A stretch of 11,943 nt of DNA, taken from a virus. The notes beneath the pieces are model-generated. The model did not search any database, was not told where the DNA came from, and was given only the letters and a program-made list of their open reading frames with translations. The position numbers and the translations under genes were made by a program. Below are positions 11,717-11,943 of the stretch, piece by piece. Position 1 is the stretch's first letter. Each line of letters begins with the position of its first letter. The DNA lies in the UHGV virus genome UHGV-0862314; one strand, 5' to 3'.

Positions 11717-11806
11717 TTATTCGCTCCCGTTATCGCAAGGTTCCTTCCGATGGAAGTAATTCCAACCGTTCCACTTCGCCAACTGATTACCGCTACCAAC
11801 AGGCAT
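11717..11806 (-). pseudogene. Possible 3' remnant of a gene-4 (tail accessory gp4) homolog, truncated upstream
   Basis: The frame ending at TAA 11719..11717 (abutting the gp10 ATG) reads MPVGSGNQLAKWNGWNYFHRKEPCDNGSE. Upstream it is closed by TGA at 11816..11818, and all three minus frames are closed between about 11795 and 11943. Resemblance to the gp4 C-terminus is from uncertain memory. Confidence 0.3.
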
Positions 11807-11943
11807 ACGGTTTGGTCACAAAACTATTCAAAAACATTTTCTGGAACAAAGACTATACAACATCCCACGGATACCCAATAGACACACAGGGAACCATAAA
11901 TAAATATTTATGGACTACACACTCAAACAAACCATTTAATGAA

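What the first reader, a model, noticed from the sequence alone, without database searches (positions are those of the whole stretch)
11717..11943. Structural module appears truncated upstream of gp10: short gene-4-like remnant, then non-coding sequence
In P22-like phages gene 4 immediately precedes gene 10. Here only about 29 codons abut the gp10 start. The frame is closed by TGA at 11816..11818, and all three minus frames are closed across 11795..11943. Together with the two frame-disrupted genes, this suggests a degraded prophage remnant or a recombination junction near 11807..11820.
Basis: inference. Interest (0 to 1): 0.45.

Follow-up and report, generated by a model that had tools for sequence, protein, structure and literature searches.

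The report
Phage contig ends in anellovirus chimera
The apparent truncation of phage gene 4 is where a gut-virome contig of an ordinary P22-like E. coli phage is joined to 127 bases of a human anellovirus capsid gene, almost certainly an amplification or assembly chimera and not a decayed prophage.

Summary
The last 32 codons of P22-type gene 4 (11717..11815, minus strand) abut the gp10 start. A TGA sits at 11816..11818, and all three minus-strand frames are closed beyond it. Homology to intact phages and prophages stops exactly at 11815.

The interpretation does not hold. The remaining sequence is neither host DNA nor non-coding filler. After one unmatched base (11816), bases 11817..11943 (exactly 127 nt) are 100% identical to an internal piece of an anellovirus ORF1 (capsid) gene. 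That gene lies on contig CYGL01001478.1. It belongs to the same WGS set (CYGL, Malawian infant gut viromes) as CYGL01000464.1, which matches window 1322..11732 at 99.99%. The tail is open on the + strand and encodes 42 residues identical to ORF1 residues 248-289.

Three other read sets carry the same phage, 100% (or 99.98%) identical up to 11815, with an intact 166-aa gene 4 and head genes upstream.

The left end of the window is a second chimera: a fold-back with 9-nt microhomology and a 127-nt inverted repeat. Both contig ends stop at the first 127-mer lying wholly in the second template. That is what a k=127 de Bruijn assembler does when it meets chimeric molecules.

Verdict: artefact, low interest.

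The parts
10298..11716 (-). Gene 10 homologue (packaged-DNA stabilization / head closure protein), intact, 472 aa
   Evidence: ORF. Pfam Phage_stabilise E 1.4e-298. The exact protein is found on 4 public contigs.
11717..11815 (-). 3' remnant of gene 4 (tail accessory factor / head-tail adaptor): codons 135-166 plus the TAA stop. The first 134 codons are missing.
   Evidence: 100% nucleotide identity to L003 and L004, and 99.98% to L001, up to 11815 and no further. Residue positions. Pfam P22_Tail-4 24.8 bits, E 2.7e-5. All E. coli and phage matches end at 11815.
11816..11816 (.). Single junction base (T on + strand) that matches neither parent. Both the intact phage and the anellovirus contig have A at the corresponding position.
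   Evidence: Base-by-base comparison of the window with L001 and L006.
11817..11943 (+). 127-nt internal fragment of an anellovirus ORF1 (capsid) gene, in frame on the + strand (peptide TKLFKNIFWNKDYTTSHGYPIDTQGTINKYLWTTHSNKPFNE). It runs to the end of the contig.
   Evidence: 100% identical to L006 1235..1361 (CYGL01001478.1) and 93.7% to L007 (CYGL01003730.1). ORFs of L006 hit Pfam TT_ORF1 at E 5.6e-82. The peptide equals residues 248-289 of the 666-aa ORF1 of L007. That ORF1 matches PDB capsid proteins 8cyg and 8v7x at E 7e-135.

Best explanation
The window is a whole contig from a virus-like-particle (virome) metagenome of infant stool. It carries the late genes of an ordinary P22/Sf6/Sf101-like E. 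coli phage.

The 'truncation' of gene 4 is an artefactual join. A chimeric DNA molecule or read, made in vitro during whole-genome amplification or library preparation, linked phage DNA at 11815, through one untemplated or misincorporated base, to the middle of an anellovirus ORF1 gene from the same sample.

A de Bruijn-graph assembler followed the chimeric path. It stopped as soon as its k-mer (127 nt) lay wholly inside anellovirus sequence, because that node branches into the real anellovirus graph. The same thing happened at the left end of the contig, with an intramolecular fold-back chimera.

Shown: the break position, the identity of both partners, their co-occurrence in one data set, intact gene 4 in sibling assemblies, and the 127-nt geometry at both ends.

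Inferred: that the chimera arose in vitro (multiple displacement amplification (MDA)-type template switching) and that the assembler used k=127.
For: 1. Homology to every intact relative ends exactly at 11815.
2. 11817..11943 is a 127/127 match to anellovirus contig CYGL01001478.1. Its ORFs are TT_ORF1. The ORF1 of the 93.7%-identical sister contig L007 matches the anellovirus capsid structures 8cyg and 8v7x.
3. That contig and CYGL01000464.1 (99.99% identical to window 1322..11732) belong to one WGS set, CYGL. The literature describes it as the Malawian infant gut virome assembly, holding hundreds of anellovirus contigs.
4. The same phage has an intact 166-aa gene 4, and L001 also has coat, scaffold, portal and terminase genes upstream. 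L003 and L004 are 100% identical to the window up to 11815, and L001 is 99.98% identical.
5. The junction has no shared sequence and one unmatched base. An overlap- or k-mer-based misjoin without a chimeric read is therefore unlikely.
6. A second chimera lies in the same contig. Window 1..1330 is L005 10288..11617 in forward orientation, then the sequence folds back onto L005 10414 downward through the 9-nt microhomology GATTTATGG (1322..1330). This leaves a perfect 127-nt inverted repeat, 1..127 against 1322..1448. Inverted joins with 2-21 nt of complementarity are the predominant MDA chimera type (PMC1855051).
7. Both contig ends stop, to the base, at the first 127-mer lying wholly in the second template. 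127 being the largest SPAdes k is my own knowledge.
8. Sister contigs show fold-backs too: L006 1..666 against 1354..2019, and L005 15349..16016.
Against: - I could not see reads, so read support for the junction and the assembler used are inferred.
- I could not verify in the held literature that these viromes were MDA-amplified. The primary paper (PMC4586842) is not held, so this rests on my memory.
- The right-hand junction has no microhomology, unlike more than 70% of MDA junctions.
- The window itself was not found in any searchable collection. Its origin in the CYGL data set is therefore inferred from near-identity to three CYGL contigs.
Confidence: 0.87

Rival explanations
1. Purely computational misjoin. 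No chimeric molecule existed, and the assembler or a contig-merging step joined a phage contig end to an anellovirus contig.
For: The tail is exactly one 127-nt unit at a contig end. The data set is rich in tangled anellovirus variants.
Against: The two partners share no sequence at the junction, and one base matches neither. Graph- or overlap-based joining needs shared sequence, and scaffolding would leave Ns. The left-end junction with 9-nt microhomology, far below any k, also needs real chimeric reads.
Confidence: 0.07
2. One reading: a degraded prophage whose head module was deleted, so gene 4 now abuts host chromosomal or non-coding DNA.
For: Gene 4 is truncated, and two downstream genes are split in the window.
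Against: - The flank is anellovirus ORF1, not host. It has no match in 5,426 E. coli genomes, plasmids, phages or GTDB representatives.
- No tRNA is present.
- The data set is described as a gut virome or metagenome assembly. That it came from purified virus particles is my recollection.
- The gp16 split is one extra T, absent from the 99.99%-identical sister contig.
- Intact versions of this exact phage exist.
Confidence: 0.01
3. A mobile element (IS or transposon) inserted in gene 4, with the tail being its terminal repeat and the contig ending because the element is multi-copy.
For: Contigs typically end k bases into a repeat. The sister contig does carry an IS1414 elsewhere.
Against: The tail is an internal, in-frame part of a capsid gene (ORF1 residues 248-289), not an element end. 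It has no match in E. coli genomes or plasmids.
Confidence: 0.01
4. A genuine in vivo recombinant molecule: anellovirus DNA illegitimately joined to phage DNA in the gut and packaged.
For: Both viruses are present in the same sample. The junction must exist in at least one sequenced molecule.
Against: - The two viruses replicate in different cells, human and E. coli.
- There is no second junction, and the contig ends at once.
- The same contig has another, clearly artefactual, fold-back junction.
- Losing the first 134 codons of gene 4 and everything upstream would leave the phage without a head module.
Confidence: 0.02

Closest known systems
Chimeric rearrangements of multiple displacement amplification (Lasken & Stockwell 2007, PMC1855051)
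   Same: The left-end junction is an inverted join with an intervening deletion and 9 nt of complementarity, the predominant class described. The right-end junction is an intermolecular template switch between two abundant templates of the sample.
   Different: The right-end junction has no microhomology and one extra base. Use of MDA on this sample was not verified here.
De Bruijn-graph contig ends (k-mer overlap with a branching node; SPAdes maximum k = 127, from my own knowledge)
   Same: Both ends of the window consist of exactly 127 nt belonging to the 'other' sequence.
   Different: The assembler and k are not documented for this window. Sister contigs in the deposit carry longer fold-backs (666 nt), so more than one assembly step may be involved.
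P22-like E. coli/Shigella phages (Sf101, Sf6, IME10, HK620, APC_JM3.2)
   Same: Gene order is 4-10-26-14-7-20-16-mnt-tailspike, with 95-96% DNA identity to the closest of them (Sf101, APC_JM3.2, IME10) over 3438..11815. The gene 4 remnant is of the IME10 / APC_JM3.2 type.
   Different: Gene 4 is cut at codon 134/135 and nothing phage-derived lies upstream. The tailspike carries a GDSL esterase domain and is split.
Anellovirus ORF1 capsid protein (Pfam TT_ORF1; PDB 8cyg and 8v7x)
   Same: The tail peptide is identical to residues 248-289 of a 666-aa ORF1 that matches these families.
   Different: Only 42 codons are present. The peptide alone hits no Pfam profile.

Membership tests
P22 gp4 tail accessory factor (Pfam PF11650 P22_Tail-4) | Sequence matches the family profile above the curated cut-off | tested here: met
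   The 32-aa remnant scores 24.8 bits against a cut-off of 21, E 2.7e-5, at profile positions 128-153 of 159. It is identical to residues 135-166 of the L001 gp4.
P22 gp4 tail accessory factor (Pfam PF11650 P22_Tail-4) | Full-length protein of about 166 aa | tested here: not met
   Only codons 135-166 are present. The frame is closed by TGA at 11816..11818.
P22 gp4 tail accessory factor (Pfam PF11650 P22_Tail-4) | Gene lies immediately upstream of gene 10 | tested here: met
   The TAA stop at 11717..11719 is followed directly by the gp10 ATG at 11716. The arrangement is the same in L001, L003 and L004.
Anelloviridae ORF1 capsid gene (Pfam PF02956 TT_ORF1) | Sequence identity to a gene that matches the family | tested here: met
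   127/127 nt identical to L006. L006 ORFs hit TT_ORF1 at E 5.6e-82, 2.6e-35, 4.5e-32 and 8.7e-31. The L007 ORF1 matches PDB 8cyg at E 7.3e-135.
Anelloviridae ORF1 capsid gene (Pfam PF02956 TT_ORF1) | The fragment itself matches the family profile | tested here: inconclusive
   The 42-aa peptide hits no Pfam family at E<=1. It is short.
MDA-type in vitro chimera | Inverted join with intervening deletion and 2-21 nt of complementarity at the junction | tested here: met
   Met at the left end of the same contig: a fold-back at 1322..1330 (9 nt) and a 127-nt perfect inverted repeat. The criterion comes from PMC1855051. The junction under study (11815/11817) has 0 nt of microhomology.
MDA-type in vitro chimera | Both partners are templates present in the same amplified sample | tested here: met
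   The phage contig and the anellovirus contigs all carry the CYGL01 prefix. The data set is described.
MDA-type in vitro chimera | Junction absent from unamplified DNA; sample documented as MDA-amplified | not testable with these tools
Degraded prophage / prophage-host junction | Flanking sequence is bacterial chromosome (or an att site or tRNA) | tested here: not met
   No match in E. coli genomes, plasmids or GTDB representatives. No tRNA is present. The flank is anellovirus.
Insertion sequence / transposon end | Tail is the terminus of a mobile element found elsewhere in bacterial genomes | tested here: not met
   No bacterial or plasmid match. The tail is an internal in-frame capsid-gene segment.

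The most novel reading that the evidence does not exclude
The junction is a real molecule formed in vivo: a fragment of a human anellovirus genome illegitimately recombined with, and perhaps packaged by, a P22-like coliphage in the infant gut. That would be DNA exchange between a eukaryotic ssDNA virus and a bacteriophage.
Probability: 0.02. Interest if true: 0.6.

Novelty: not a real feature. Interest (0 to 1): 0.07.

Why it matters
It matters mainly as quality control. A reader or pipeline that treats this contig as a genome would call a truncated structural module, a 'prophage remnant', or even a phage carrying eukaryotic-virus DNA. The contig shows chimeric junctions at both ends with an assembler-specific 127-nt signature. 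That is a useful rule for screening virome contigs before drawing biological conclusions. The phage itself is an ordinary member of the P22/Sf6/Sf101 group.

Tried and rejected
- **Host flank.** I searched 11800..11943 against complete E. coli genomes, phages and plasmids at blastn sensitivity. There was nothing, or only chance hits at E 0.4.
- **Exact and codon-degenerate patterns.** Searches in GTDB representative genomes and IMG/VR gave nothing. The junction itself is not in IMG/VR.
- **Rearranged copy.** I tested whether the tail is a rearranged, reversed or complemented piece of the window or of sister contigs. Only 12-nt chance matches turned up.
- **IS or Tn end.** Considered because contigs often end k bases into a repeat. 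Rejected once the tail proved to be an internal ORF1 segment.
- **Intact gene 4 inside the CYGL deposit.** The cluster look-up showed only that this exact gp4 is common: 1000 contigs (the counting limit), including E. coli chromosomes. The homology search added no context.
- **MDA use in the source study.** I tried to confirm it from the literature. The primary paper is not held and the citing papers do not state it.
- **tRNA scan.** None found.

Full report
**What is in the sequence.** On the minus strand the window carries the late-gene block of a P22-like phage.
- gp10 lies at 10298..11716 (472 aa, Pfam Phage_stabilise E 1.4e-298).
- Downstream of it come the tail needle with an Sf6-type knob, gp14, gp7, gp20, gp16, an Mnt/Arc repressor and a tailspike.
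- Directly upstream of the gp10 ATG, as GAA TAA ATG, is an open stretch of 32 codons (11717..11815). A TGA at 11816..11818 closes it.
- All three minus-strand frames carry stops across 11816..11943.

The raw observation is therefore correct.

**Is the remnant gene 4?** Yes.
- The 99 bases are 100% identical to the 3' end of a 166-aa gene annotated P22_Tail-4 in three public contigs carrying the same phage (L001, L003, L004).
- The peptide equals residues 135-166 of that protein.
- On its own it passes the Pfam cut-off (24.8 against 21 bits).
- Among E. coli complete genomes, 916 of 5,426 match the 11300..11943 query, and 187 carry this gene 4 type. Every alignment ends at query base 516, which is window 11815.
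- The same holds for the 8 phage records with this gene 4 type, such as IME10 and APC_JM3.2.
- A base-by-base comparison puts the break between 11815 and 11816, with no shared bases.

**What is beyond the break?** GC content falls from 0.49 to 0.33.
- The 128-nt tail has no match in complete E. coli genomes or phages, only chance hits in plasmids, and none in GTDB species representatives or IMG/VR.
- One + strand frame is open through the whole tail. I therefore searched the metagenome collection with a codon-degenerate pattern. It found two contigs, CYGL01001478.1 (L006) and CYGL01003730.1 (L007).
- Window 11817..11943 is a 127/127 match to L006 1235..1361, and 93.7% identical to L007.
- These contigs are anelloviruses. 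Four L006 ORFs hit Pfam TT_ORF1, the best at E 5.6e-82.
- L007 holds an intact 666-aa ORF1 with the arginine-rich N-terminus. It matches the solved capsid proteins 8cyg and 8v7x at E 7e-135.
- The tail encodes, in frame on the + strand, residues 248-289 of that ORF1.
- Base 11816 (T) matches neither parent. Both have A there.

**Where does the window come from?** An exact look-up of gp10 found CYGL01000464.1 (L002/L005). It is 99.99% identical to window 1322..11732.
- All three related contigs therefore share the WGS prefix CYGL.
- One paper lists a CYGL01 contig as 'Assembly HumMal, Ma_F259_Contig_623' (PMC10888812).
- Another describes project CYGL as the gut metagenome of Malawian infants from Reyes et al. 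2015, with hundreds of anellovirus contigs (PMC12721403).
- The window itself is in none of the searchable collections. I infer that it is another contig assembled from those data.
- In such a sample, a coliphage and an anellovirus are simply two co-purified templates.

**The same phage is intact elsewhere.** L003 and L004 are 100% identical to the window right up to 11815, and L001 is 99.98% identical.
- All three continue upstream with an intact gene 4.
- L001 also has coat, scaffold, portal and terminase genes.
- The exact gp4 protein occurs on 1000 contigs (the counting limit), including E. coli chromosomes.

**A second chimera in the same contig.** Window 1..1330 equals L005 10288..11617 in forward orientation. 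Window 1322..11732 equals L005 10414..5 in reverse.
- The contig runs through the N-terminal part of an acyltransferase gene (on the minus strand), its upstream region, and the first ~77 nt of an IS1414 copy.
- It then folds back into the acyltransferase gene through the 9-nt microhomology GATTTATGG (1322..1330).
- This leaves a perfect 127-nt inverted repeat, 1..127 against 1322..1448.
- In the deposited sister contig the sequence instead continues through the full IS1414 into the integrase.
- Inverted joins with 2-21 nt of complementarity are the predominant chimera class of multiple displacement amplification (PMC1855051).
- L006 (1..666 against 1354..2019) and L005 (15349..16016) also contain fold-backs.

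**The 127-nt signature.** At both ends the contig stops, to the base, at the first 127-mer lying wholly within the 'second template'.
- On the right this is 11817..11943.
- On the left it is 1..127, the reverse complement of 1322..1448, which starts exactly at the microhomology.
- A de Bruijn assembler with k=127 behaves this way. That node has two predecessors, the true one and the chimeric one, so the unambiguous path ends there.
- That 127 is the largest SPAdes k is my own knowledge. The assembler used is not documented here.

**Mechanism, and which steps are shown.**
- Shown: the break position, the identity of both partners, their co-occurrence in one data set, intact sibling genomes, a second chimeric junction, and the 127-nt geometry.
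- Inferred: a chimeric molecule formed in vitro by template switching during amplification or library preparation, was sequenced, and was incorporated by the assembler.
- A purely computational misjoin is unlikely, because the partners share no sequence at the junction and one base matches neither.
- A real in vivo recombinant cannot be formally excluded without reads, but nothing supports it.

**The 'two frame-disrupted genes'.**
- gp16 is split (5639..6958 and 4189..5490) by one extra T at 5662, relative to CYGL01000464.1. There gp16 is an intact 922-aa gene.
- The tailspike is split into 399-aa and 354-aa ORFs overlapping at 2576..2630. The frame switch must lie in the short stretch that contains a 7-base homopolymer (2595..2601), and one more T would fuse the frames. 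This split is shared with the sister contig.
- Neither split is good evidence of prophage decay.

**Verdict.** This is a chimeric virome contig, not a truncated prophage. The phage is an ordinary member of the P22/Sf6/Sf101 group. Interest is low.

Noticed in passing
window 1..1448: Fold-back chimera at the left contig end. 1..1330 is the sister contig (L005 10288..11617) in inverted orientation. It is joined at the 9-nt microhomology GATTTATGG (1322..1330) to the rest, with a perfect 127-nt inverted repeat, 1..127 against 1322..1448. As a result an Acyl_transf_3 (O-antigen acetylase-like) gene appears as two inverted pieces: 1..1061 on the minus strand and 1322..1542 on the plus strand.
   Followed up: yes
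window 1254..1330; L005 11541..12866: The first ~77 nt of an IS256-family IS1414 copy lie in the window. In the sister contig the complete IS1414 sits between the acyltransferase gene and the phage integrase, so this phage genome carries an IS. This fragment probably explains why 4,336 E. coli genomes 'match' the window.
   Followed up: partly
window 5662 (gp16, 4189..6958 minus strand): One extra T, relative to the 99.99%-identical CYGL01000464.1, splits the 922-aa gp16 (SLT transglycosylase plus P22_gp16 domains) into 439-aa and 433-aa ORFs. It is the only difference in 10.4 kb, so it is likely a sequencing or assembly error or a minor variant.
   Followed up: partly
window 1566..3775 (minus strand); homopolymer at 2595..2601: The tailspike has a P22 head-binding domain followed by a GDSL/SGNH esterase domain (399 aa). 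A 354-aa ORF with no Pfam hit overlaps it by 55 nt in another frame. A T7 run lies in the overlap, and one more T would fuse the frames. The same state is present in the sister contig. The receptor-binding part did not appear in the whole-window matches to E. coli complete genomes, which begin at about 3416 or later.
   Followed up: partly
L006 1..5650; L005 15349..16016: The deposited sister contigs look chimeric themselves. L006 has a 666-nt inverted repeat (1..666 against 1354..2019) and holds two different anellovirus ORF1 genes (~66% identical). L005 ends in a 668-nt imperfect palindrome (85% identity).
   Followed up: no
window 9450..10298 (minus strand): The tail needle (gp26 homologue) carries an Sf6-type knob domain (Pfam Phage_tail_NK), as in Sf6 and HK620 and unlike P22.
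   Followed up: no
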